From assembly GCA_043815885.1 (NCBI GenBank), contig JBDRIL010000060.1, forward strand, positions 1 to 51,245: a DNA stretch of 51,245 nucleotides, given 5' to 3'. Below, piece after piece: positions 3,574-14,491 of this stretch (position 1 is the first letter of the stretch; each line of letters opens with the position of its first letter). This DNA is from an archaeon (GTDB taxonomy: Archaea; Iainarchaeota; Iainarchaeia; Iainarchaeales; 1-14-0-10-31-34). Position numbers and translations under genes: made by a program. A model generated the notes under the pieces. It was given only the letters and a program-made list of their open reading frames with translations. It made no database searches and was not told the DNA's origin.

Positions 3574-3590
3574 AGGCGATGATGAGCTTA
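3574..3590 (+). repeat. Direct repeat copy 2, AGGCGATGATGAG(c)TTA
   Basis: 16/17 identical to 2553-2569; overlaps the hydA stop codon. Confidence 0.7.
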
Positions 3591-4862
3591 TCCCCATTTC
3601 ACTTTAAGGAAGTGGGCTGAACAGGAAAAGCAGGGGTCATAGGCGCGGATGAGTTTTTCCATTTCCAGGGAGATTTCTTCTTTTGGTTTTTTCAGGAGAG
3701 AGGGAAGAAAGAGTTTGATGTCTCTCTCTATGGATGCGACATTTTGGGCTGTAGGGACAACCAGATTGCATTCCTTAACTGTTCCTTTTTCATCGAATTT
3801 ATAGGAATGATAGAGTGTTCCTCTGGGGGCTTCAACTACCCCTATTCCGACTGATTTTCTTGGGGTTATTGGAGGAATTGATTCCTCTCTTAATTTTAAG
3901 TCCTTTATCTTGTCTATTGCGTAATCAATGAAGTGAAGTATTTCGACTGCCTGGGCAAGATTGTTTGCATAAGGGCATTGTTCTTTTAGTTTTACTCCAA
4001 TTCTATTCAACTCGTTCCTGGTTTCTTTTCTAATTCTTTTATGCATTAAATTGTATCTGCTTAAGGCTCCGACATAGAATTCCTCTCCAAAGAGCTTGGC
4101 GAATTTTGCAGTGGAAAAAGAGACAACGTATTCCCTTAAATTGCTTAAGTATTCTTCTTCTGGAATGCACATTCCTTTATTGGAGCAGACCATTCCTGTA
4201 TTGAGGGAATAATCATTGTTCACTAAAGAAATGTAAGTGGACGGCCTGACGCATTCATACTTAAAGGAATTAAATAATTCGATGCATTTCACTGCATCCT
4301 TTCTTGCCTTCTTTAAGTGATCATATAATTCATTCAATTGTTTTTGATAAGGAATTACCTTGAATCCTCCGATCGTTGCATTCACTGGATGAATGGCTCT
4401 TCCGCCAAACACCTTCACGATTTCTGAAGCTACCTTCTTTATTCGGATTGCCCGATGGATTTCTTCATGGTGTTTTTCCTCGAAATCAAGGATGGAATCC
4501 TTTCCAAGATAATCAGGAAGTGAGAAAAAGTAAAGATGGAGGGTGTGGCTTCTGATTATTTCCCCTATAAGCATTAGGTTCTGCATTAATCTGGTTTGTT
4601 CTGTGGTTTCTACGCCAAATGCTTTTTCTATGGCCTTAACTGAGGCAGAGACATAGGAAGTGGAACAGACACCGCAGATCCTTGAAGTAAAGGTCGGGAT
4701 ATCCTTATAGCTTCTTCCAACAACCATTTCCTCAAAGAAACGGGCATTCTCTGTAATATCCAGCTGGGCTTTCTCTACTACTCCTTTTCTTACTCTGAGG
4801 AATAAATTTGAATGGCCTTCAACTTTTGTTAAGCCATAAAGACTCAAATCCATTGAATGCAT
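3588..4862 (-). CDS. hydA: Group 3b NiFe hydrogenase (sulfhydrogenase) large/alpha subunit
   Basis: 'KVEGH', L1 'RICGVC', 'EAPRGTLYH', L2 'DPCFSCSAH' plus a short C-terminal extension. GGAGG SD precedes ATG 4862. Confidence 0.93.
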   Translation of the reverse strand: MHSMDLSLYGLTKVEGHSNLFLRVRKGVVEKAQLDITENARFFEEMVVGRSYKDIPTFTSRICGVCSTSYVSASVKAIEKAFGVETTEQTRLMQNLMLIGEIIRSHTLHLYFFSLPDYLGKDSILDFEEKHHEEIHRAIRIKKVASEIVKVFGGRAIHPVNATIGGFKVIPYQKQLNELYDHLKKARKDAVKCIELFNSFKYECVRPSTYISLVNNDYSLNTGMVCSNKGMCIPEEEYLSNLREYVVSFSTAKFAKLFGEEFYVGALSRYNLMHKRIRKETRNELNRIGVKLKEQCPYANNLAQAVEILHFIDYAIDKIKDLKLREESIPPITPRKSVGIGVVEAPRGTLYHSYKFDEKGTVKECNLVVPTAQNVASIERDIKLFLPSLLKKPKEEISLEMEKLIRAYDPCFSCSAHFLKVKWG

Positions 4863-4875
4863 TTTCTTCCTCCTT

Positions 4876-5661
4876 TTACAAATGAAAGTAATACTTTCCA
4901 ATTATCTCATTTATTTCCTTCATTGAAAAACCTTTTTCCTGCAATAATTTCTTGAATGAATTAAAGTTGGCATCACTGTAAAAGCCCCTGCAGCCGTCAC
5001 ACGCTGCACCATTATTTGGACAGAGGGAATCACATCCGGCAGCAATTATCGGGCCCATGCAGAAACCTTCTTTTATCAATAAGCATTCATTTTCATTCTG
5101 CTTGCATTCAACACACACAGCAAAATCCTTTTCCCTTGGCTTTAATCCATGAACAAGGTGAATCATCAATGAATAGAATTCTTCTTTCTGTATTGGACAG
5201 CCTCTTACAATGTAATCAACTTTAACGTATTTCCCTATCGGCCAGGCTTCTGTCTCCTGCTTGGTTGTTTCAGTGATTTTTTTCTTTAATTCTTCCGAGA
5301 GATGGTTTCTGACTGAAGTAATCCCTCCAAATGCAGCACATGCCCCCAAAGCCACAAGCGATTTTGCATTCTTTCTTATTTCCTTTAATTTCTTTATGTT
5401 GTCCTTTGAAGTAATTGTTCCTTCCACTATCGCAATATCCATTGGCTTTACTTCATAGGATTCCCTTAGCATTTTAAAGTAAGAGAGATTCATTGCCTTA
5501 TTCAATTCAAGCAATCTTTCCTCTAATTCAATTACCTCAAACTGGCAGCCCTCACAGCAGGTGAAAGTGAAAACACCGACAGTTAATCTGTTGTTTTTAT
5601 TGTATACCGAAGGTATACAATGTTTTTTTGATAAAACTTTTCGGAAAAGTTTTTTATTCAT
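4876..5661 (-). CDS. hydD: Group 3b hydrogenase small/delta subunit, with a 19-aa N-terminal insertion
   Basis: 'TCCEGC', 'VEG', 'GACA..GG', 'GCP' and a C-terminal Cys cluster. Confidence 0.92.
   Translation of the reverse strand: MNKKLFRKVLSKKHCIPSVYNKNNRLTVGVFTFTCCEGCQFEVIELEERLLELNKAMNLSYFKMLRESYEVKPMDIAIVEGTITSKDNIKKLKEIRKNAKSLVALGACAAFGGITSVRNHLSEELKKKITETTKQETEAWPIGKYVKVDYIVRGCPIQKEEFYSLMIHLVHGLKPREKDFAVCVECKQNENECLLIKEGFCMGPIIAAGCDSLCPNNGAACDGCRGFYSDANFNSFKKLLQEKGFSMKEINEIIGKYYFHL
5602..5658 (-). repeat. 57-nt in-frame double-hairpin element in hydD
   Basis: AAAACTTTT-CCG-AAAAGTTTT and ATTGTATACC-TTC-GGTATACAAT, bounded by AATAAAAA direct repeats. Homologous to 12597-12707. Confidence 0.85.
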
Positions 5662-5663
5662 TT

Positions 5664-6491
5664 TTATTCCTCTTCTTGAAATAAATTTATTTTATTTAAA
5701 GGAAAGACTGGCCCGTCCAGACAAACATGCTTTTCTCCAATCATGCAGTGACCGCACTTTCCTGTACCGCAATACATTAATCTCTCAAGGGAAGCATAAA
5801 TCCTTTCTTCACTGAAACCCAGTTCCTTCAGCTTTAATGAAACAAAGTGAATCATTACAGAAGGGCCGCAGATTAATGCCACTGCATTCTCTGGATTAAT
5901 GGTTTCCGGTTTCAATAAATCCGTAACCAATCCGACATGGCACTTGTAATCCTCGTCCTTGCAGTCAACAGCGAGAAGAGTGTTAATGGAAGAATTCTTC
6001 TGTAATTTATTCATTAATTCCCTGTAAATGATTTCCTTTGGGGACTTGGAGCCATAGTAGAGAGTGATTTTTTTACAGAGGGAAGGATTTTCTAGAAGGT
6101 GAAGCAGAAGGGAATGAATCGGCGCTACACCTATTCCTCCTGCAATCAGGTAAACATTTTTTCCATTTAATTCCTCTAAAGGCCAGCTGTTTCCGTAAGG
6201 CCCTCTCACTCCTACTGTTGCGCCTTCCTTTAATTCAAATAATTCATCTGTTACCTTGCCTGCTTTCATTACACTTAAATCAAATGAATTCTTTTGCGAT
6301 GGAGGAGAGGAAATGCTTATTGGGGCTTCTCCAACGCCAAAAACCGAGAGTTCTACAAACTGGCCCGGAAGAAAGGAAAAATTTTTTTGTGCAGAAGAAT
6401 CCTTAAAGGAAAGAGTGAAGGTTTTCACTTTAGGGGATTCCTCTTTTATCTTCTTTATAATGCATGGTTCTGGCATTAAATTATTCCTCAT
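5664..6491 (-). CDS. hydG: Group 3b hydrogenase gamma subunit (FAD/NAD(P)-binding, 2Fe-2S)
   Basis: 'PGQF', 'GPYGN', 'GGIGVAP', 'CGP', 'CGTGKCGHC...CLDGPVF'. ATG 6491 overlaps the end of the upstream gene. Confidence 0.92.
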   Translation of the reverse strand: MRNNLMPEPCIIKKIKEESPKVKTFTLSFKDSSAQKNFSFLPGQFVELSVFGVGEAPISISSPPSQKNSFDLSVMKAGKVTDELFELKEGATVGVRGPYGNSWPLEELNGKNVYLIAGGIGVAPIHSLLLHLLENPSLCKKITLYYGSKSPKEIIYRELMNKLQKNSSINTLLAVDCKDEDYKCHVGLVTDLLKPETINPENAVALICGPSVMIHFVSLKLKELGFSEERIYASLERLMYCGTGKCGHCMIGEKHVCLDGPVFPLNKINLFQEEE

Positions 6492-8682
6492 TTTTTTCAC
6501 CGCTGATATTGTTTACTATTTTCACTATATCGATTGAGACAGGGCATACATCAATACACCTTCCGCATCCAACACAGAGGTGCTGGGGGAAATTCTTTTT
6601 ATGGTAGAGTAATTTGTGGAGGATGAAATGCCTTAATCTGGAAGTACGGGACTTCCTGAATATATGGTCGCCGGAAACACGGGTAAAACGCTTTAACTGG
6701 CAGGAATCCCATTCCCTCATTCTAACAGCATCATTGCTCAGCAAAGCAAAATCATCCTTTATTCTGTAGCAGTAGCATGTAGGGCAGACCATTGTGCAGG
6801 AACCGCAACTCAAACAAATGTCTGCATTTTTCTCGAATTCTTTATGGGAAAAATTTTTTTTAAGGATTTCCTCAAAATTCTTTGAATTAATTTTTCTCGG
6901 GGTTTTTGGGACAGTAAGAGGGGAGTGCTTTTCAGTGGAAGAAAAAAACTTCTTGTTTATGAGTTTTAAGCCTTTTTCAGAGCCAACCTCTGCAAGGTAA
7001 TTCTTTCCGTTTCTCCAAAAGAATAAATCGAATTCTTGCGGAAGGTGAGTTCCGAGAGAGGTACAGAAACAGTTTTCCCCTGCTTCTTCACAGCTCAAAC
7101 CAATTAAAATTGAGTTCTCTCTTTTTTCCCAGTAAAAGGAATCAATTGGTTCCTTTAGGAAAACTGAATCAAGGATTGAAATTGCATGGAGGTCACAGCT
7201 CCTGATTCCAAAAAATATTCTATTTCCTGCTCTCGGGAGAGGCTTAACGGAATAAGAAGAATTTTTTTCATTGAATTCAAATAAGGCTTCTCCTGAAGGA
7301 AGAAAATATTTTTTTGTTGAAAAGGTGGTGGGTTTTTCCATGTAAAGGTTTGCTTCAGGGAATGGCTTGAAGCGCTTTATTTTTCTGTGGTCAAGGGAAG
7401 GGACAATCAATTCAGTTTTTTTATTTAATTCTTTCAGGAAAGGAAGGAGTTTTTCTTTCTTTAATTCAAATAATCCAAAAAATTGCTTTTTATGATTTTT
7501 TAATTCTTCTATTGCAGAAAGGGTTTTGCCTGAAAGGAATTTAAGCGAGGCCTTTCCGCTGAGGGAAACATAAGAGAATCTGTTTTTCGGGATTTTAAAT
7601 GAAAGCAGTGCTGTCTCAGTGTCCCCGCCTCCCAAAAAAGAGAATGCGTTGGAGGAAGCAATTGATTTAAGAATGCTTTTAGTTCCAAGGGAGAATTCTT
7701 TTTCCTCAAAGACTCCAAAAGGGCCATTGAATACAATCATTCTTGCTTTGGCTATTTCATCTGAATATAATTTAATTGTTCTTTCGCCGATGTCCTTGCT
7801 GAAGTATTTTGAGGGAAGGTCATCAACACTTAATTCCTTTCTTTTTTTGTTTTCATCAAAGGCCAAATCTATTGGAAGGAGAATCCTGCTTCCGTACTTA
7901 TTCAGTAATTCCTTTGCTTTTGGAATGAATTCAGTGAAATTCTTTTTTCTAATAAAGGAATCTTTGGCTCCAAGCTTGTGTCCCTGCGCAGAGAGAAATA
8001 CTTCAGAGAGAGCGCCTCCCAAAAGCACTTTGTCTGCCTTTCCTTGCTTCAGAAAAAATTCAATTGTTTTAATTGAGTCTTTTGGCTTAATTCCTCCGAG
8101 TATAAGCAAGCGGGGTTTTTGTGTAAAGGAAAGCGCTTTAGAGAGGGAATTGAGCTCTTTTTCCATTACCCCTCCAATGCAGGAAGGAAGTAAAGGGAGG
8201 AATCCTACAACTGATGCATGGCTTCTGTGGCTGACAGAAAACGCGTCCAATACAAATAAGTCTGCTTCTTTCGCCAAGTCCTGAATCCATTTTTCCTTTG
8301 AGTGCTCCAAGGGAGAGAGTTCCTTTGTTTCGTTTTCAAGGAAACGCGTATTTTCTAGGAGAAGGATTTGGCCTTTCTTTAAGTTTTTTACTTTCTGGAT
8401 AAAGTTATTCCATTCAGAGAATAAAACCTTTTTTCCGGTTAATCTGGAGAGAATTTTTGAGTGTTCTTTTAAGGAAGTGAAATCTTTCTCGCCTTTTCTT
8501 CCCTGATGGGATAAAACAATCAATCGGGTTTTTTTCCTGCTTAATTCCTTTAAGGTTTTAGCATGCTCAATAATTCTGCTTGAAATTACTGGTCTAGAGT
8601 TCTGAATATTGCTGTTGAAGTCAGCCCTTACAATAAGTGTTCTGCCACTAATATTCAGTTTATTTACCGGAGTTAAGGACAT
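6481..8682 (-). CDS. pgk: Fusion of phosphoglycerate kinase (about aa 1-397) and hydrogenase beta subunit HydB (4Fe-4S)
   Basis: PGK motifs: RADFN, SHQGR, LLENTRF, HRSHAS, NGPFGVFE, GGGDT. HydB/AsrA motifs: GIRSCD, CFC, CLSCGSCTMVCPTCYC, WDSC, CVGCGRCIDVCP. One uninterrupted frame. Confidence 0.92.
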   Translation of the reverse strand: MSLTPVNKLNISGRTLIVRADFNSNIQNSRPVISSRIIEHAKTLKELSRKKTRLIVLSHQGRKGEKDFTSLKEHSKILSRLTGKKVLFSEWNNFIQKVKNLKKGQILLLENTRFLENETKELSPLEHSKEKWIQDLAKEADLFVLDAFSVSHRSHASVVGFLPLLPSCIGGVMEKELNSLSKALSFTQKPRLLILGGIKPKDSIKTIEFFLKQGKADKVLLGGALSEVFLSAQGHKLGAKDSFIRKKNFTEFIPKAKELLNKYGSRILLPIDLAFDENKKRKELSVDDLPSKYFSKDIGERTIKLYSDEIAKARMIVFNGPFGVFEEKEFSLGTKSILKSIASSNAFSFLGGGDTETALLSFKIPKNRFSYVSLSGKASLKFLSGKTLSAIEELKNHKKQFFGLFELKKEKLLPFLKELNKKTELIVPSLDHRKIKRFKPFPEANLYMEKPTTFSTKKYFLPSGEALFEFNEKNSSYSVKPLPRAGNRIFFGIRSCDLHAISILDSVFLKEPIDSFYWEKRENSILIGLSCEEAGENCFCTSLGTHLPQEFDLFFWRNGKNYLAEVGSEKGLKLINKKFFSSTEKHSPLTVPKTPRKINSKNFEEILKKNFSHKEFEKNADICLSCGSCTMVCPTCYCYRIKDDFALLSNDAVRMREWDSCQLKRFTRVSGDHIFRKSRTSRLRHFILHKLLYHKKNFPQHLCVGCGRCIDVCPVSIDIVKIVNNISGEKNEE

Positions 8683-8700
8683 CCAAAAAGTCTCCTTAAT

Positions 8701-9732
<1,032 letters not shown>

Positions 9733-9754
9733 TCAGGCAATTCATTATTAAAAA

Positions 9755-10633
9755 TCATTCGGTTTCTTCTTCAATGAATTGCTCGTATTCAGTGGAATTG
9801 AATTTATAGAGGAATCGCTTTATCTTCAAGCCATTAAAGGAATACTTTTGAAGGATTTCAGTTTTTTCTCCAATGAATTCATTGAATGAAGCTTTTGAGC
9901 AGGGATCCAAAAGCATGAATTTGCTGTTGAATGCAGAAATCACAAAGGAATGCGTTGAAGAGTCTTCCATTTCTGCTACCATTACTGAAGCAGTTGCATC
10001 CCCTAATGCATTAAGGATATTGCAGAGAAAAAGGCTTACGTCTTCGTCATCCCCTGCCTTCAGAGAGAGGAGTTCCCTGGAGGAAAGCCAGTAATTCAGT
10101 TCAAGGTCTGAATCAATGCAATTAATTCCATTTGAAACAAATTCGTGTGCTTTTTCTGCTGTCTCCAGATAATCTCTCTTGAATTCATATTCTTCTGGTT
10201 TAAGGTTAGAGATAACTGATTGAGTGGTTAAGTCATTGGCATCAACCAATCCCTTTATTTCTCCAATGGTTTTCTTTTCGGATTCATTTATTAGTTCAGT
10301 GTACTTCTGCAATAAAAATTTGTATAGCTTGAAGCGCAATTCTTTTTCTTTCTGGGTTTCCTCTTTAGGGGAAACACTTCCAACAGCTTTTCTAAGGATA
10401 TCATATTTTTCCCTTAATTCCTGCAGGGATTCTTCTTTTTCCTTAAGCTTTTTTTCCAGTTCGTCTCTTGGGGAGGCCAGTTCAGAGAGCTTCTTTTTCA
10501 GGAGAGAAATCTTGAAATCAATTTCCTTTTTCTTTTCTTCAAGTGATTCTTCATGCTTGTCTTTTTCCAATTCTTCGATTCTCTTCCAGAGCTGCTGTTC
10601 AATTAAACTCTTTCTTCTTTCCTCTGAAGCCAT
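9755..10633 (-). CDS. Coiled-coil protein with a transglutaminase-like C-terminal domain
   Basis: Heptad-rich N-terminus. 'YW.S..E.L....GDDED', 'HSFV' and 'LLDP' follow the transglutaminase-like pattern. Confidence 0.6.
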   Translation of the reverse strand: MASEERRKSLIEQQLWKRIEELEKDKHEESLEEKKKEIDFKISLLKKKLSELASPRDELEKKLKEKEESLQELREKYDILRKAVGSVSPKEETQKEKELRFKLYKFLLQKYTELINESEKKTIGEIKGLVDANDLTTQSVISNLKPEEYEFKRDYLETAEKAHEFVSNGINCIDSDLELNYWLSSRELLSLKAGDDEDVSLFLCNILNALGDATASVMVAEMEDSSTHSFVISAFNSKFMLLDPCSKASFNEFIGEKTEILQKYSFNGLKIKRFLYKFNSTEYEQFIEEETE

Positions 10634-10756
10634 AAAATTGTACCTTTTCTATAAAATAACCCTTCCTGGGACAAGGATATAAATATTGCGAAAAAGGAAA
10701 AAAAAGTCAATATTTTTATTAAGAAGAGTAATTGTATATAAGGAGGGAAAAATAAA

Positions 10757-12193
10757 ATGAATGGACAGGTTTCACTGGAATACTTGATGGTTGTAGGGTT
10801 CTTCTTGGTTGTTATTGGAGTAGTGTTCATTTACTCTTATTCAAGTTCCTCTGATACTTTTACTCTGGATAAAATAGATAATTCACTGAGTGCAATAAAG
10901 AACGGAGTGAATCAGGTTTATGCTTTGGGGCCGGGAAACCAGATTAAAGTAGACATTGATTTGCCTTACAATATATTGGACCACGAACTTACAGGAAGGT
11001 CAATTGCTTTTGTACTGCAAAGAGCAGGAGGAACAACAGACATTGTTGCTTATACTGATGCAGAGGTAGTGGGCGAACTTCCAATTACAGCTGGAAGGCA
11101 CACAGTGGTAATTAAAATGCTTGAATCAGGAGTAGTGAGAATAGGGGAAGGATTAATCATTACTCCAACTACACTTATAAGGACAAAAGTTCCAGGAAGC
11201 AGTGAAGATTCAAATATATTTACTTTAAGTAACCGTTCAACAGAAAATCTAACAAACTTAATTGGAGCAATAAGTGGAAGCATTGCTTCCTATGTGGCAT
11301 TTGATGACAGTTCAACTATAAAACTAATCACTAACGGCCTTACAGTAAACCAGGATTTGAACTTTGACGTGAATTTTGCTGCAATTCCTGCTGGAACAGC
11401 GGCAGGATTCTATGAAGGATTTGTGGATGTAAATTCAAATGAAGGATTTACTGATAGAGCGTTAATTCAGTTAAGGATTCCTGGAGTGATACAGGACATA
11501 AATATTGCAGTATTTAATGACAGCAATTATTTAGTGTATGATGAAGATTTTGCGCAGGGAGAAACCGTTTATTACCTGATTAAGGCAATAGGGCAGACAG
11601 GAGAAGAAATAGAAATAATCGACTTAAACATAACTATAAGTGATCCCCCTCCAGTAACAAATGATTCAAACTACTTCAATCAATCAGTTCCGATTGGAGG
11701 ATACAAAGGAGAGTTCTATATTGATTGCGGGGCAGAGGAAGGGGAATGGACTATTACTGCACAGGCAAATGACTTCAATTATGTGAGGGAAGACAAGAAC
11801 TTCAATGTAGCTGAAGGAGGCCTTGATGCAAACAGTTTCTGGTTTAGCTGTGTTGATCCAGACTGCGACAAGACAGGAACTACGTTTGATGGATGGAGGA
11901 TAGGGAATTCCTGTCTCGATAATATAACAATAACAGAGATAAAGACAAAAGCAACAGCGGGAGCAGATGTAAAGGGAGTTAATAGAATAACAATAAACAA
12001 TATAACCAAATACAATGGAAGTGAAACCACTGACTGGGTTGTGTTGAGTGGGGGTTTTACGGTAGCAGGGTTTACCAATTACTTGACTGGGAATTCATTT
12101 AAGTTTGGTTCAAGTATTGAAGGAACACAGGAATTCGATTTATACTTCAAGTTTGAGGATGCAAGCATTTATCACACTACCTTTACCAAATAA
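10757..12193 (+). CDS. Large pilin-like or adhesin protein with class III signal peptide
   Basis: 'MNG/QVSLEYL' followed by a hydrophobic helix; beta-rich remainder. Confidence 0.8.
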   Translation: MNGQVSLEYLMVVGFFLVVIGVVFIYSYSSSSDTFTLDKIDNSLSAIKNGVNQVYALGPGNQIKVDIDLPYNILDHELTGRSIAFVLQRAGGTTDIVAYTDAEVVGELPITAGRHTVVIKMLESGVVRIGEGLIITPTTLIRTKVPGSSEDSNIFTLSNRSTENLTNLIGAISGSIASYVAFDDSSTIKLITNGLTVNQDLNFDVNFAAIPAGTAAGFYEGFVDVNSNEGFTDRALIQLRIPGVIQDINIAVFNDSNYLVYDEDFAQGETVYYLIKAIGQTGEEIEIIDLNITISDPPPVTNDSNYFNQSVPIGGYKGEFYIDCGAEEGEWTITAQANDFNYVREDKNFNVAEGGLDANSFWFSCVDPDCDKTGTTFDGWRIGNSCLDNITITEIKTKATAGADVKGVNRITINNITKYNGSETTDWVVLSGGFTVAGFTNYLTGNSFKFGSSIEGTQEFDLYFKFEDASIYHTTFTK

Positions 12194-12205
12194 AGGTTGA
12201 TTTAA

Positions 12206-12598
12206 TTGAATAAAGGACAAGCTGCAACAGAAGCAATGTTTTCCATGGCAATCATATTATTGATTTTTCTGCTGTTTTTCAGCATAATAGTGAACCATGA
12301 CGAGAGAGTAAGAGACTATGAAGGCAACTGGGAAGAAGCAGCAAGATGCAAGAAGATTGCAGGAATAATGAGTGCACTGTATGTGGCCGGGAATGGAGCA
12401 AAATGGGATGGAACAATTGACAGAAACTTATTTGTTTACGGAGACAGCTTTATTGATTTAGAGGACTACAATGCAACTGGAGCAAAAGAAGGGGCTTTGT
12501 GTTACTTTGACGGAGTAACAACTGAAGATGTGAATGGGCACTGGGGGGATATTGAGATAATGAATATAGATGGAAACATAGTGGTGAGAAATGCGTAA
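12206..12598 (+). CDS. Minor pilin-like protein
   Basis: 'NKG/QAATE' class III signal followed by a hydrophobic helix; TTG start. Confidence 0.8.
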   Translation: MNKGQAATEAMFSMAIILLIFLLFFSIIVNHDERVRDYEGNWEEAARCKKIAGIMSALYVAGNGAKWDGTIDRNLFVYGDSFIDLEDYNATGAKEGALCYFDGVTTEDVNGHWGDIEIMNIDGNIVVRNA

Positions 12599-13202
12599 TA
12601 AAAAAACTTTTAGGAAACCCTATTTGAATCCAAGGATTCAAAGGGGCCCATTTGAGTTCTACTCAATTGGGAGTTTTATCAAAAAGCATTGCATACCTTC
12701 GGTATGCAATAAAAAAGGACAGATAATAGCTTACGATTTATTCTTTGCAGTAACAGTGTTTATCCTGCTTTCAGGGGCAATGCTTTTGGTTTGGTATTAT
12801 AATGCAGAGTACGCGGAAAAAGAGGAAACACAGAATGACTTGAAGGAGAGAGTGACAAGAATAACCGATGTAATGGTGAATACAAGAGGCAGTCCAGCGA
12901 GATGGGATGAGAACCTTTCACAGGACATAAATACAATTGGTTTGGTGGGAGAGAGAAGGGTGATTGAAAAGGAAAAGCTTCAAGCATTTGAGTCAATGGA
13001 TTACAGTAAGGCAGTAAGTGCAATGAAGATTTCAGGATACAATTTTTACTTTAAGCTGGAACAGGGAAACCAGATAATAGCGGAAAAATATAATACTGTT
13101 TCCAGTGATTACTTAACGGAATCAGATTATGTGGTTGGAACAAGAAGGGTTGTGGAATATGAAAGAAAAAGGGCGATTCTTTCCCTTAATTTGTACAAGT
13201 AA
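12591..13202 (+). CDS. Minor pilin-like protein with a 37-aa insertion in its leader
   Basis: 'NKKG/QIIAYDL' followed by a hydrophobic helix; 'GSPARW' and 'IGL' motifs. Confidence 0.8.
   Translation: MRNKKTFRKPYLNPRIQRGPFEFYSIGSFIKKHCIPSVCNKKGQIIAYDLFFAVTVFILLSGAMLLVWYYNAEYAEKEETQNDLKERVTRITDVMVNTRGSPARWDENLSQDINTIGLVGERRVIEKEKLQAFESMDYSKAVSAMKISGYNFYFKLEQGNQIIAEKYNTVSSDYLTESDYVVGTRRVVEYERKRAILSLNLYK
12597..12707 (+). repeat. 111-nt in-frame multi-hairpin element in the pilin-like gene
   Basis: AAAACTTTTAGGAAA[54-nt double hairpin]AGTTTTATCAAAAAGC-ATTGCATACC-TTC-GGTATGCAAT, bounded by AATAAAAA direct repeats. Confidence 0.85.
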
Positions 13203-13632
13203 GGGATGGGTCTTAAGTATTGATTCAATGGGCGCAGTCATTCTAGTGGTGGCTGTAATACTGTTAATGAGTTATCATCCATTCGAGAAAAGCACTGATG
13301 CACTGAATTCACTTGAAATGCAGAGAAACTTCAATGATGCGCTGGATTTAATGGATAGGGATGGAACGCTTCAACAAATGGATTCAAGTGAAATAGTGGA
13401 AGACCTGAATGCTGTTCTCCCAATACAGTATGACTGGAAGTTAAGGATAAGGGAATACAGGTACTTTCAACAGGAATTCGTTAAAACCGATGATTTGAGT
13501 GCAGGGAATACGTCGAAGGATACCGAAGAAGAGAGTGTGGTTAAGGGAAGCAGGTTGTTTCTTTCCTTTTCTGACGAAAAAATCAATAGATTCCATTACG
13601 CTGAGTACTGGGGATGGTTGAAGAATGAATAA
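13159..13632 (+). CDS. Minor pilin-like protein (start uncertain)
   Basis: 'SKG/WVLSID' followed by a hydrophobic helix. Confidence 0.7.
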   Translation: MKEKGRFFPLICTSKGWVLSIDSMGAVILVVAVILLMSYHPFEKSTDALNSLEMQRNFNDALDLMDRDGTLQQMDSSEIVEDLNAVLPIQYDWKLRIREYRYFQQEFVKTDDLSAGNTSKDTEEESVVKGSRLFLSFSDEKINRFHYAEYWGWLKNE

Positions 13633-14491
13633 CAAGGGAGTCTTTATTACGCTGACAATTTTTCTCCTGGCTGCTGGGGTTCTTGCCTTAAGCCAGAGCA
13701 TCAGGCATAATTTCAATGAATTAGAGGGAAACAATAAATACGTTGTAATGACTGATAGAGTGGGCTATAAATACGAAAATATTCAGGACAATATTTTTGA
13801 TATAATAGAGAACATTAGCGGGATAGACTTCAATATAGGAGAGAAAAGCATTACCTTCACAGAAGAGCTTCCAAATGCAAGAAGCCTTGATGCAATGGAG
13901 ATATCGATTGGTGCTTACAAAAAATTTGTTGAAGAACACAAAGACGGATTGGATATAAACATGAACATAACTGACTTTGATTTAAGTACCTTCACTATAA
14001 TGCCTTACGACATTAATTACTCTCATGCTGATGCTCCTGGAAGAGGCAATAGACACAATAACACAATTTATTATGAGCCTTCCTCTCTTGACTTCAATGC
14101 ATATGTAGTGGAAGTAATACTGCAAAACCAAACATATGATGAAGTAGAGGAAGACATTGATTATGCTGACATGGCAGGAGAGCAAGGAGTCAACTTATTG
14201 CTCATTGTAAGGAACAGTGTAAAGATAGAGGAATTCAGTAAATTCTATGAAGGAATAGATGCAAACGCAGAGAGCGAGATAACGATTAGTACTACTGGAA
14301 ACGCGGAAAAGGATGTACATATAACTATTACTCCTTTTGGAAAAATGACTGTACTGAATAACAATTCTGTTGCAGTGGATATTGTTACGGGAATTGATTT
14401 TGGTGATGACGCAACAGAGGAACCATACCTTGAGTTATTGAAGGGATTAGTGGTAGTGAGGAGCCCCAGGCTTAAGATAGAAAAAAGATAA
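13625..14491 (+). CDS. Pilin-like protein
   Basis: 'MNNKG/VFITL' followed by a hydrophobic helix. Confidence 0.75.
   Translation: MNNKGVFITLTIFLLAAGVLALSQSIRHNFNELEGNNKYVVMTDRVGYKYENIQDNIFDIIENISGIDFNIGEKSITFTEELPNARSLDAMEISIGAYKKFVEEHKDGLDINMNITDFDLSTFTIMPYDINYSHADAPGRGNRHNNTIYYEPSSLDFNAYVVEVILQNQTYDEVEEDIDYADMAGEQGVNLLLIVRNSVKIEEFSKFYEGIDANAESEITISTTGNAEKDVHITITPFGKMTVLNNNSVAVDIVTGIDFGDDATEEPYLELLKGLVVVRSPRLKIEKR

What the first reader, a model, noticed from the sequence alone, without database searches (positions are those of the whole stretch)
5594..5661. In-frame palindromic element just after the hydD start codon (copy 1 of a coding-insertion family)
Seen: HydD begins M-[NKKLFRKVLSKKHCIPSVY]-NKNNRLTVG. 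The 57-nt bracket forms two hairpins (AAAACTTTT-ccg-AAAAGTTTT; ATTGTATACC-ttc-GGTATACAAT) between AATAAAAA direct repeats. The peptide KKHCIPSV.NK recurs in an unrelated pilin gene 7 kb away on the other strand. Removing the insert leaves a normal-looking N-terminus. Inference: a small non-autonomous element that inserts at A-rich gene starts and persists when in frame, analogous to Rickettsia palindromic elements. Alternatives are an element removed from the RNA or bypassed by the ribosome, since matching AAT AAA codons flank the hairpins.
Basis: partly seen in the sequence, partly recalled or inferred. Interest (0 to 1): 0.82.

Follow-up and report, generated by a model that had tools for sequence, protein, structure and literature searches.

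The report
Mobile hairpin repeat inside hydrogenase gene
A 57-base two-hairpin repeat that occurs about 30 times in this small archaeal genome has landed, in frame, just behind the start codon of a hydrogenase gene, and related strains still carry the empty site, so it is selfish DNA that has become part of a protein.

Summary
The hydD-like gene (window 4876-5661, minus strand) carries 57 extra bases (5594-5650) directly after its ATG. They hold two hairpins, lie between two copies of AATAAAAA, and read through as 19 codons.

- **Family:** nhmmer finds 30 copies in the 1.16 Mb archaeal genome, 17 short and 13 long.
- **Coding copies:** 6 of 30 sit in frame and in sense just after a start codon. 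Besides hydD, five host proteins begin with a leader-like N-terminus, three of them class-III-signal-like. One more copy supplies a stop codon. The other 23 are intergenic.
- **Empty sites:** contigs of two other public runs skip exactly these 57 bases, with 8 ambiguous bases. Orthologues of three host genes lack the insert. A 93%-identical HydD keeps it.
- **RNA removal or ribosome bypass:** not supported. Every coding copy keeps the frame, and no splice motif was found.
- **Mobilising enzyme:** unknown. No terminal inverted repeats, and no DDE, Y1, rve or reverse-transcriptase gene was found.
- **First hairpin unit:** it recurs in 65 of 196 genomes of the order and on many AT-rich IMG/VR contigs.

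This works like the Rickettsia palindromic elements but is a new archaeal variant, not a member of that family.

The parts
4876..5661 (-). hydD-like gene: small (delta) subunit of a group-3b-type [NiFe] hydrogenase, 261 aa, including the 19-codon insert
   Evidence: ORF list and translation. PF01058 covers residues 36-168, E 7e-26. Homologues are named 'sulfhydrogenase subunit delta' by a source. 35 invariant columns are kept in a 14-sequence alignment.
5594..5650 (-). The 57-nt insertion as delimited by the empty allele. Because of the 8-nt repeat the same event can be written as anything up to 5602-5658.
   Evidence: read laying joint 5593->5651, 'skips 57', both = 8. X4 record 26: 419 nt, depth 6.8, 181 nt on the shorter side. 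X3: one contig, depth 2, 39 nt on the shorter side.
5651..5658 (-). Left copy of the 8-nt direct repeat AATAAAAA (codons 2-4 of hydD)
   Evidence: Read from the sequence. Equals the 'both = 8' of the joint.
5594..5601 (-). Right copy of the 8-nt direct repeat AATAAAAA. Its AAT also closes the stem of hairpin 2.
5633..5653 (-). Hairpin 1: AAAACTTTT-CCG-AAAAGTTTT. The stem is invariant in the short copies and the 3-nt loop is hypervariable.
5622..5632 (-). Linker ATCAAAAAAAC between the two hairpins
   Evidence: ATCAAAA directly after hairpin 1 is kept across the order.
5599..5621 (-). Hairpin 2: ATTGTATACC-TTC-GGTATACAAT
   Evidence: Stem positions 2, 4, 5 and 8 show two-sided changes among 29 copies.
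5659..5661 (-). hydD start codon ATG. It is the only ATG, GTG or TTG in frame upstream of the conserved CxxC motif.
   Evidence: Read. The next in-frame TTG lies after the invariant C36/C39.
5668..5672 (-). Shine-Dalgarno-like GAGGA, 6 nt upstream of the ATG
   Evidence: Read. The label is inferred from the sequence, not tested.
12591..13202 (+). Class-III-signal-like ('pilin-like') gene of unknown family, 203 aa, with a long copy of the element in frame after MRNKK
   Evidence: Its orthologue P0123 (68% identity, 166 aa) starts MPKEKGQVLTYDLFF and is 37 residues shorter.
12607..12710 (+). Core of the long copy, 104 nt: hairpin 1 interrupted by a two-hairpin piece of about 55 nt, then linker and hairpin 2
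   Evidence: nhmmer E 2.7e-33. Core coordinates. Fold -42.3 kcal/mol, z -5.3. Alignment of the 13 long copies.
5664..6500 (-). hydG-like gene (FAD/NAD-binding and Fe-S domains). Its stop codon TAA lies 2 nt before the hydD ATG.
3588..4901 (-). hydA-like large subunit (NiFeSe_Hases), downstream of hydD and overlapping it

Best explanation
Bases 5594-5650 are one copy of a short, non-autonomous, two-hairpin repeat. It integrated into the A-run of codons 2-4 of hydD (ATG AAT AAA AAC...) and left an 8-nt direct repeat, AATAAAAA.

The added length is 57 nt, or 19 codons, and the sense frame used has no stop. The ribosome therefore reads straight through, and HydD carries a basic 19-residue N-terminal extension, KKLFRKVLSKKHCIPSVYN.

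The family lands at A-runs that are usually preceded by T. Copies inside gene bodies are lost. The survivors lie between genes, often touching a stop codon, or in the first codons of genes whose N-terminus tolerates extra basic residues.

**Shown:**
- the repeat family;
- the precise empty allele;
- orthologues without the insert;
- frame conservation in all coding copies.

**Inferred:**
- that the insert is translated;
- that it is neutral or slightly harmful rather than useful;
- that stems are kept, and look 'compensated', through palindrome-templated correction or selection for the hairpin.

**Unknown:** the enzyme that moves the element.
For: **1. Repeat family.**
- nhmmer gives 13 full-length long copies and 17 short ones, 30 in all.
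- Mean pairwise identity is 0.85 for short cores and 0.88 for long cores.
- Chance expectation for the motifs in the window is 0.

**2. Empty allele in DNA.**
- The joint 5593->5651 skips 57 bases with 8 ambiguous bases.
- X4 shows it in a 419-nt contig, about 94% identical, depth 6.8.
- X3 shows it in one contig at depth 2, with 0 mismatches in the 127 nt on one side.

**3. Orthologues without the insert.**
- HydD: P0003 (59% identity), G035 and G027.
- Pilin-like gene: P0123, 68% identity, 37 residues shorter.
- Lipoprotein on contig C12: P0125, 85% identity, starts MNKKIILL, 37 residues shorter.

**4. The insert persists in frame.** P0002 (93% identical HydD, 2 member sequences) reads MTKKLFRKVLSKKHYMPPAYNKNNKL. 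Its I->M and V->A changes are what an A.T to G.C change at stem position 8 of hairpin 2 would encode.

**5. Where the copies lie (stop-codon case).**
- 6 of 30 are in frame and in sense within 12-30 nt of a start codon.
- 1 of 30 provides the stop codon of the upstream gene.
- 23 of 30 are intergenic.
- TAAAAAA sites lie 63% in gene bodies (823 of 1298), yet no copy interrupts a gene body.

**6. hydD has no other usable start.** It keeps all 35 invariant columns of the family.

**7. Same spot hit in another genus.** G003's hydD holds a different insert of roughly 100 nt, built from hairpin units repeated in its own genome.
Against: - No RNA or protein data, so translation of the insert is inferred only.
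- No terminal inverted repeats.
- No candidate transposase in this 91.7%-complete assembly. Y1_Tnp, DDE_Tnp_1, rve and RVT_1 were all not found. Only TnpB-like genes are present, and the ends of their IS do not resemble the element.
- Presence and absence are patchy. A near-identical strain in X3 lacks the insert while a 93%-identical protein has it. Precise loss between the 8-nt repeats explains the polymorphism as well as recent insertion does.
- The X3 evidence is one contig at depth 2.
- The hairpin-1 unit with ATCAAAA is kept in 65 of 196 genomes of the order and on many IMG/VR contigs. That is wider than expected for a purely selfish, fast-decaying repeat and leaves room for a host function.
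- My gene calls rest on a home-made codon-usage caller.
Confidence: 0.8

Rival explanations
1. The element is a host cis-element, for example a bidirectional terminator or insulator, an RNA-processing or stability hairpin, or a protein binding site. On this reading it is kept for function, and the coding copies are accidental by-products.
For: - The unit ACTTTT-loop-AAAAGTTT-N-AYCAAAA occurs in 65 of 196 genomes of the order and in all 8 other genomes of the family. The reversed-pattern control gives 0 everywhere.
- In G001 at least 8 of its 19 units touch stable-RNA genes. One is inside a tRNA intron, one is inside RNase P RNA, and six lie 2-7 nt from tRNA ends.
- In the antisense orientation each hairpin is followed by a run of 6-7 T (read).
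- Stems are kept while loops vary.
Against: - Presence/absence polymorphism with a flanking direct repeat is the mark of insertion or excision.
- Intergenic copies occur in both orientations relative to neighbouring genes: about 10 sense and 8-9 antisense downstream of a gene (my reading).
- Copies inside the first codons of six genes are hard to explain as function.
- No RNA data were available.
- A useful role and mobility are not mutually exclusive.
Confidence: 0.13
2. The 57 nt are removed from the hydD message (archaeal bulge-helix-bulge splicing or another RNA excision), or the ribosome hops from the first AAT AAA to the second. Either way mature HydD would lack the peptide.
For: - Identical AAT AAA AA words flank the hairpins.
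- This lineage has many intron-bearing tRNAs.
- In G001 the hairpin-1 unit sits inside a tRNA intron.
Against: - All 6 coding copies keep the frame and have no stop, which removal or bypass would not require.
- The net inserts are 19, 37 and 37 codons.
- P0002 keeps the insert as an open frame after 7% protein divergence.
- There is no stop codon after the 'take-off' codon.
- A crude bulge-helix-bulge score is 5 of 10 for all rotations of the insert. Random sites have a median of about 6, and 7 tRNA-intron controls score 6-9. The controls had more search freedom, so this test is weak.
Confidence: 0.04
3. The in-frame copies have been recruited. The element would supply a useful basic leader module, or a new start codon (the ATG inside hairpin 2), to secreted and pilin-like proteins.
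For: - 5 of 6 coding copies lie ahead of hydrophobic leader-like segments read from the translations. These are three class-III-signal-like starts, one lipobox and one signal-peptide-like start. Pfam's Class_IIIsignal matches one of them at residues 24-47, at 22.9 bits, just under the 23.7 cut-off.
- 3 of 6 coding copies carry an in-frame ATG in hairpin 2. The genome's own gene call for the C12 lipoprotein starts there (P0124).
Against: - Orthologues work with short leaders.
- A-runs are common after start codons of such genes (MKK.., MNK..), so the bias follows from the target.
- The ATG variant is no more common in coding copies (3 of 6) than in the others (about 10 of 23).
- HydD is not secreted.
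Confidence: 0.03

Closest known systems
Rickettsia palindromic elements (RPE). Known to me from the review PMC10969869, of which I read passages only. It cites Ogata et al. 2000, which I did not read.
   Same: - Short palindromic repeats, many copies per small genome.
- A large share inserted in frame into unrelated protein genes.
- They add a peptide that the host protein tolerates.
- No coding capacity of their own.
   Different: - About 51-nt or 105-nt cores here, against about 150 bp for RPEs.
- An archaeon, not Rickettsia.
- Coding copies sit only in the first codons, mostly ahead of leader-like N-termini, or at a stop codon, not inside folded domains.
- Built from separable hairpin units.
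- Sequence relatedness to RPEs was not tested, because no RPE sequence was at hand.
Prokaryotic MITEs, including those reported at high density in DPANN archaea (PMC11602168, one passage read)
   Same: Small, non-autonomous and multicopy. Mostly intergenic. A flanking direct repeat at the one insertion with a known empty site. The review states that in-frame fusions of MITEs with host ORFs are 'not unusual'.
   Different: The short element has no terminal inverted repeats, and no partner IS with matching ends was found. Only the piece of about 55 nt nested in the long form has inverted ends, CCCTATTTGA / TCAAATTGGG (read).
REP/BIME elements and their RAYT transposases; IS200/IS605-derived hairpin elements
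   Same: Mosaics of different palindromic units with linkers. Hairpins near both ends. No inverted terminal repeats. Loops are strand-specific (TTC in 18 of 29 copies, GAA in 2).
   Different: - No GTAG or CGTC head (read from the copies).
- No Y1 transposase in this assembly.
- Across the order, Y1 genes and the hairpin-1 unit are not associated: 18 of 55 genomes with Y1 have the unit, against 47 of 141 without (my count).
- A flanking repeat that varies with the site (TGAAAAA, TTAAAAA) is not expected for IS200/IS605.
- 7 of 30 copies overlap coding sequence.
Mobile or shared archaeal tRNA introns (my recall of work on Thermoproteales; not checked in a paper here)
   Same: Hairpin-bearing short sequences shared between unrelated RNA genes in small archaeal genomes. 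In G001 one hairpin-1 unit lies inside a tRNA intron.
   Different: The hydD insert has no bulge-helix-bulge motif, and it is absent or present at the DNA level.

Membership tests
Rickettsia palindromic elements | Repeated palindromic element dispersed in the genome | tested here: met
   30 copies. Hairpins confirmed by folding.
Rickettsia palindromic elements | In-frame insertion in protein-coding genes, read through as peptide | tested here: met
   6 of 30 copies lie in continuous ORFs. 3 of the 6 have orthologues lacking the insert. Translation itself was not observed.
Rickettsia palindromic elements | Sequence homology to RPE families, and occurrence in Rickettsia or relatives | tested here: not met
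   The genome has archaeal 16S and 23S rRNA. Homology to RPE sequences was not tested (none at hand). Rfam gave no match in the window.
MITE (strict sense) | Terminal inverted repeats | tested here: not met
   The ends ..AAAAAACTTTT and ..GGTATACAATAAAAA are not inverted copies of each other (read).
MITE (strict sense) | Target-site duplication | tested here: inconclusive
   An 8-nt repeat at the one site with a known empty allele. Site-specific variants occur on both flanks in C14, C2, C50, C1 and C31. Most repeats are T plus an A-run, which could equally be part of the element's end.
MITE (strict sense) | Autonomous partner IS with the same ends | tested here: not met
   Only TnpB-like IS copies are present, and their ends differ. 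No DDE_Tnp_1, rve or Y1_Tnp. The assembly is 91.7% complete.
REP/BIME with RAYT | REP-associated Y1 transposase gene in the genome | tested here: not met
   PF01797: 0 matches at E <= 0.01 in G000, while the control rings in 6 of 14 known genomes.
REP/BIME with RAYT | Strictly extragenic location | tested here: not met
   7 of 30 copies overlap coding sequence.
IS200/IS605-derived hairpin element | Subterminal hairpins, no inverted terminal repeats | tested here: met
IS200/IS605-derived hairpin element | No target duplication; fixed short target 5' of the left end | tested here: inconclusive
   The left flank is T plus an A-run in most copies, which fits a fixed target. However, the right-hand repeat co-varies with the left flank in about 5 informative copies.
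Archaeal bulge-helix-bulge intron | Two 3-nt bulges around a 4-bp helix at the two cut sites | tested here: not met
   Best score 5 of 10 pairs over 44 placements. Random sites have a median of about 6. The test is crude.
Programmed translational bypass (T4 gene 60 type; features recalled, not checked in a paper) | Matched take-off and landing codons with a stop codon right after take-off | tested here: not met
   Matched AAT AAA words are present, but no stop follows and the gap is an open frame.

The most novel reading that the evidence does not exclude
The conserved unit (A-run, AAAACTTTT-loop-AAAAGTTTT, ATCAAAA) is a widely shared mobile hairpin cassette of small-genome archaea and of AT-rich viral contigs, and it spreads by a route not yet described. 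This genome holds no DDE, Y1, rve or reverse-transcriptase gene. The element has no inverted ends. It integrates at T-plus-A-run sites with a duplication, and its loops are hypervariable while its stems are fixed.

Candidate routes are a virus-borne enzyme acting in trans, or an RNA- or ssDNA-based copy mechanism linked to tRNA-gene flanks. Some in-frame copies may already serve as leader modules or new start codons.
Probability: 0.12. Interest if true: 0.8.

Novelty: new variant of a known kind. Interest (0 to 1): 0.55.

Why it matters
It extends 'selfish DNA inside protein genes', best known from Rickettsia, to very small archaeal genomes. It also shows a clear rule for survival: copies persist only between genes or in the first codons of genes, and five of the six host proteins begin with a leader-like N-terminus.

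**Practical consequences**
- Start codons of such genes are easily mis-called. The genome's own call for one host gene starts at the ATG inside the element.
- N-terminal signal predictions will be disturbed.
- The presence/absence polymorphism gives strain markers in groundwater populations.

**Open question made testable.** The element has no visible transposase, yet one of its hairpin units is shared across an archaeal order and with viral contigs. That sets a defined search problem for the mobilising activity.

Tried and rejected
**Searches that found nothing useful**
- Rfam on the window: 0 families at gathering score.
- BLAST of the long copy against 40 relatives: only four marginal hits of 18-26 nt, E 0.004-0.009. 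The exact family was not found outside G000 among those searched.
- IMG/VR scan for the full short-element signature: 0 hits.
- The representative-library search with the C1 PKD protein returned only PKD-repeat giants and said nothing about its N-terminus.

**Parent element**
- The 1.3-kb repeats on C11 and C38 are TnpB-like IS copies. Their ends do not resemble the element, apart from a 14-nt stretch at the tnpB start that I take as chance.
- The other long repeats are paralogous genes: radical SAM and FtsZ.
- No Y1, DDE_Tnp_1, rve or RVT_1 in G000. The assembly is 91.7% complete, so absence is not shown.
- Y1 genes across the order do not go with the hairpin unit: 18 of 55 against 47 of 141 (hand count). 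Kin are not independent.

**Ideas rejected**
- Special targeting of start codons. Among tolerated TAAAAAA sites, 45 of 462 lie in the first 30 nt of genes. That gives about 2.8 of 29 expected against 6 seen, which is only a modest excess.
- The C30 copy splitting one gene in two. The downstream frame is closed right before its start.
- Bulge-helix-bulge splicing. No motif was found (crude).

**No data**
- RNA evidence: no RNA holder was listed for this stretch.
- Supplementary tables of the two MITE papers were not opened. They may list MITEs of related archaea.
Full report
**What is there**

The minus-strand ORF 4876-5661 encodes a 261-residue protein that starts MNKKLFRKVLSKKHCIPSVYNKNNRLTVGVFTFTCCEGCQ. 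Pfam places the NADH-quinone-oxidoreductase 20-kDa / hydrogenase small-subunit domain (PF01058) from residue 36.

Its neighbours on the same strand are a NiFeSe_Hases large subunit (3588-4901), a FAD/NAD/Fe-S gamma-like subunit (5664-6500), and an ORF that fuses phosphoglycerate kinase to a 4Fe-4S beta-like part (6481-8682). Sources name close homologues 'sulfhydrogenase subunit delta'. 'hydD' is therefore a fair name.

Directly after the ATG, the gene strand reads AATAAAAA, A, hairpin 1 (AAAACTTTT-CCG-AAAAGTTTT, which overlaps the A-run), ATCAAAAAAAC, hairpin 2 (ATTGTATACC-TTC-GGTATACAAT), then AAAAA. RNAfold returns exactly these two hairpins: -14.7 kcal/mol, z -5.3, 0 of 200 shuffles as good.

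The genome (62 contigs, 1,160,370 bases, 36.8% G+C, 91.7% complete) has archaeal 16S and 23S rRNA.

**It is a repeat family**

Both hairpin motifs are absent from shuffled windows. nhmmer with the hydD copy and with the copy at 12595-12722 finds 30 elements.
- 17 are short, with cores of 48-52 nt. One is 61 nt, and one is a variant with a different second hairpin.
- 13 are long, with cores of 104-108 nt.

In the long form hairpin 1 is interrupted by a piece of about 55 nt that has two hairpins of its own and inverted ends. Mean pairwise identity is 0.85 for short cores and 0.88 for long cores.

Variation is concentrated in the loops. The 9-bp stem of hairpin 1 is identical in 15 of 16 short copies, and the 16th has a 1-nt deletion. 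Its 3-nt loop shows 10 different triplets.

Hairpin 2 shows two-sided changes at stem positions 2, 4, 5 and 8. At position 8 the pairs are A-T 12, G-C 9, C-G 1, G.T 4 and mismatches 3, out of 29 copies. Two copies carry the loop inverted, GAA instead of TTC. I read this as correction of one palindrome arm from the other, or as selection for the hairpin. That is inference.

**Where the copies sit**

I used a simple codon-usage gene caller of my own, which gave 1207 genes and 90.5% coding. With it, 6 of 30 copies lie in sense and in frame within 12-30 nt of a start codon:
- hydD;
- the class-III-signal-like ORF 12591-13202;
- a lipobox lipoprotein with DUF4412 (contig C12);
- a PKD protein with a near-threshold Class_IIIsignal match at residues 24-47 (C1);
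- a second class-III-like protein (C36);
- a large protein whose N-terminus reads like a signal peptide (C58).

One more copy (C30) supplies the stop codon of the upstream gene. The other 23 are intergenic. About ten lie within 20 nt of the stop codon of a gene in the same orientation, and eight or nine lie antisense after a gene (my reading).

The left flank is T plus an A-run in most copies. TAAAAAA sites lie 63% in gene bodies (823 of 1298), yet no copy interrupts a gene body. Among tolerated sites the first 30 nt of genes hold 45 of 462, so about 2.8 of 29 copies are expected there against 6 seen. Selection against disruptive copies is clear. Special targeting of start codons is not needed.

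All six coding copies are in the sense orientation. The antisense strand of the hydD copy also has two open frames, and across the short copies two antisense frames are open in 11 of 16. The antisense strand would encode hydrophobic peptides and carries T-runs after each hairpin.

**It is an insertion, and empty sites exist**

I laid the contigs of four public DNA runs on 4000-14000. One clean joint appeared: 5593 joined to 5651, skipping 57 bases, with 8 bases that fit either side.
- In X4 this is a 419-nt contig, depth 6.8, with 216 and 181 nt on the two sides and about 94% identity.
- In X3 it is one contig at depth 2, with 127 nt without mismatch on one side and 39 nt on the other.

An 8-nt repeat cannot cause a false join in a 31-mer assembly, so this is a real allele without the element. 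It reads ATG AAT AAA AAC AAC.

Protein searches agree.
- P0003 (59% identity) starts MKKKLKIGFF. G035 and G027 start MAKKLKVGVF and MAKKMRAGFY.
- P0002 (93% identity) keeps the insert as MTKKLFRKVLSKKHYMPPAYNKNNKL.
- The pilin-like protein has an orthologue (P0123, 68% identity) that starts MPKEKGQVLTYDLFF and is 37 residues shorter.
- The C12 lipoprotein has one (P0125, 85% identity) that starts MNKKIILL and is also 37 residues shorter.

The net inserts are therefore 19, 37 and 37 codons. The distribution is patchy: present in G000 and P0002, absent in a near-identical X3 strain and in X4. That needs either repeated gain at a hot spot or precise loss between the 8-nt repeats. Both are plausible and I cannot choose between them.

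In G003, a different genus of the same family whose HydD is 40% identical, the same position holds another in-frame insert (MKNKLFKKKFNQKNLFEKKVHQKAGGKVPYGNNKKKKLRAGFF). It is built from units that are repeated in G003: 43 BLAST matches at E <= 1, of which 27 at E < 0.01, self included.

**How it most likely works**

The insert has to be translated for hydD to function. No other ATG, GTG or TTG lies in frame before the invariant CxxC motif, the ATG has a GAGGA 6 nt upstream, and the rest of the protein keeps all 35 invariant columns of the family.

Five of the six hosts have N-termini that read like leaders, three of them class-III-signal-like. If those leaders are removed or play no part in the mature fold, extra basic residues there would matter little. 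That is inference from the translations and from one near-threshold Pfam match. Other HydD orthologues carry natural lysine- and arginine-rich N-terminal extensions (P0009, P0012, P0013).

Three coding copies contain an in-frame ATG inside hairpin 2. The genome's own gene call for the lipoprotein starts there (P0124), so the element can also shift the apparent or real start.

Removal from the RNA and ribosome bypass are unlikely, for three reasons.
- The frame is kept in all six coding copies.
- No stop follows the first AAT AAA.
- A crude bulge-helix-bulge scan scores 5 of 10, below the random median.

No RNA run was listed, so none of this was tested directly.

**What moves it is unknown**

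There are no inverted ends. The genome holds three TnpB-like genes whose IS ends differ from the element. No Y1, DDE_Tnp_1, rve or RVT_1 gene was found. Across 196 genomes of the order, Y1 genes (in 55) and the hairpin-1 unit (in 65) are not associated: 18 of 55 against 47 of 141.

**A wider pattern**

The pattern ACTTTT-N3-6-AAAAGTTT-N-AYCAAAA occurs in 65 of 196 genomes of the order, in all 8 other genomes of the family (up to 53 per genome), and never in the reversed control.

In G001 none of its 19 units is coding, but at least 8 touch stable-RNA genes. One is inside a tRNA intron, one is inside the archaeal RNase P RNA, and six lie 2-7 nt from tRNA ends.

The same unit occurs on at least 119 IMG/VR stretches. 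The 11 I looked at have 19-35% G+C and often carry several copies or tandem arrays. Those contigs may be viruses of such hosts or mis-binned host DNA; I did not test which. The full short-element signature gave 0 IMG/VR hits, and BLAST found the G000 family in none of 40 relatives.

The short element is therefore a lineage-specific composite of a widely shared hairpin unit and a local second hairpin. This breadth keeps alive a rival reading in which the unit has a host function.

**Comparison with what is known**

A review states that in-frame fusions of MITEs with host ORFs are not unusual and that Rickettsia palindromic elements are the extreme case (PMC10969869, passages read). A survey reports the highest archaeal MITE densities in DPANN genomes (PMC11602168, one passage read).

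Four literature searches (one search was badly framed) listed no paper describing in-frame palindromic insertions in archaeal leader peptides. I did not open supplements.

The element works like an RPE but fails membership: the host is an archaeon, and homology was not shown. It also fails the strict MITE and REP/RAYT definitions, having no inverted ends, no partner and no RAYT. I file it as a new variant of a known kind.

**Verdict**

Confidence is 0.8 that this is a mobile, or formerly mobile, hairpin repeat translated as part of HydD. Interest is 0.55: a clear and well-documented case, with a genuine open question about what mobilises it.

Noticed in passing
window 6481-8682 (-), with 8701-9699 (-): One continuous 733-aa ORF joins a complete phosphoglycerate kinase (PF00162, residues 7-386) to a 4Fe-4S dicluster part (Fer4_22, residues 623-717) of the kind found in hydrogenase beta subunits. 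It sits between a GAPDH gene and hydG-hydD-hydA. This is either a glycolysis-hydrogenase fusion or a missed stop.
   Followed up: no
G000 contigs C26:34109-34298, C26:34783-34936, C26:45775-45926, C28:7689-7835: Four tRNA genes (Ser-gct, Asn-gtt, Glu-ttc, Asp-gtc) carry 75-103-nt introns. The introns share a different hairpin, CTTTTTCTTTTT-aga-AAAAAGAAAAAG, followed by CCCAAAAAGAAAAA. They look like related introns in unrelated tRNAs.
   Followed up: partly
G001 loci L045-L062 (e.g. L052:641-755, L058:509-802): In a related genome the hairpin-1 unit lies inside a tRNA intron, inside the archaeal RNase P RNA gene, and 2-7 nt from the ends of six tRNA genes. Upstream copies are in the opposite orientation to the tRNA.
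   Followed up: partly
IMG/VR loci L063-L142 (e.g. L091, L110, L113, L104): The hairpin-1 unit with AYCAAAA occurs on at least 119 stretches of viral-collection contigs. These include contigs labelled as giant-virus bins, at 19-35% G+C. Some carry tandem arrays with periods of 29-38 nt. Whether these are viruses or mis-binned host DNA was not tested.
   Followed up: partly
G000 C11:11239-12556, C38:17321-18638, C2:1-720: Three TnpB-like (Cas12f1-like TNB, OrfB_IS605) genes. Two sit in a 1.3-kb repeat at 90% identity. No TnpA was found in the assembly.
   Followed up: partly
window 12607-12710 and the 12 other long copies: The long form looks like a short element whose first hairpin was hit by a second tiny element of about 55 nt with inverted ends CCCTATTTGA / TCAAATTGGG. 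No solo copy of that inner piece was found by nhmmer.
   Followed up: partly
G000 C12:13336-14139 (locus L033:1337-2140): The gene call on record for this lipoprotein (P0124, 234 aa) starts at the ATG inside hairpin 2 of the element, not at the upstream ATG that gives 267 aa. Repeat-borne start codons can mislead annotation.
   Followed up: yes
G002 C3:66409-66559: Four hairpin-1 units spaced exactly 42 nt apart, a short tandem array in a relative (listing).
   Followed up: no
G000 C14:25131-25282 (locus L044:1173-1322): The tRNA-Ala between the 16S and 23S rRNA genes is 152 nt long and has a 76-nt intron.
   Followed up: no
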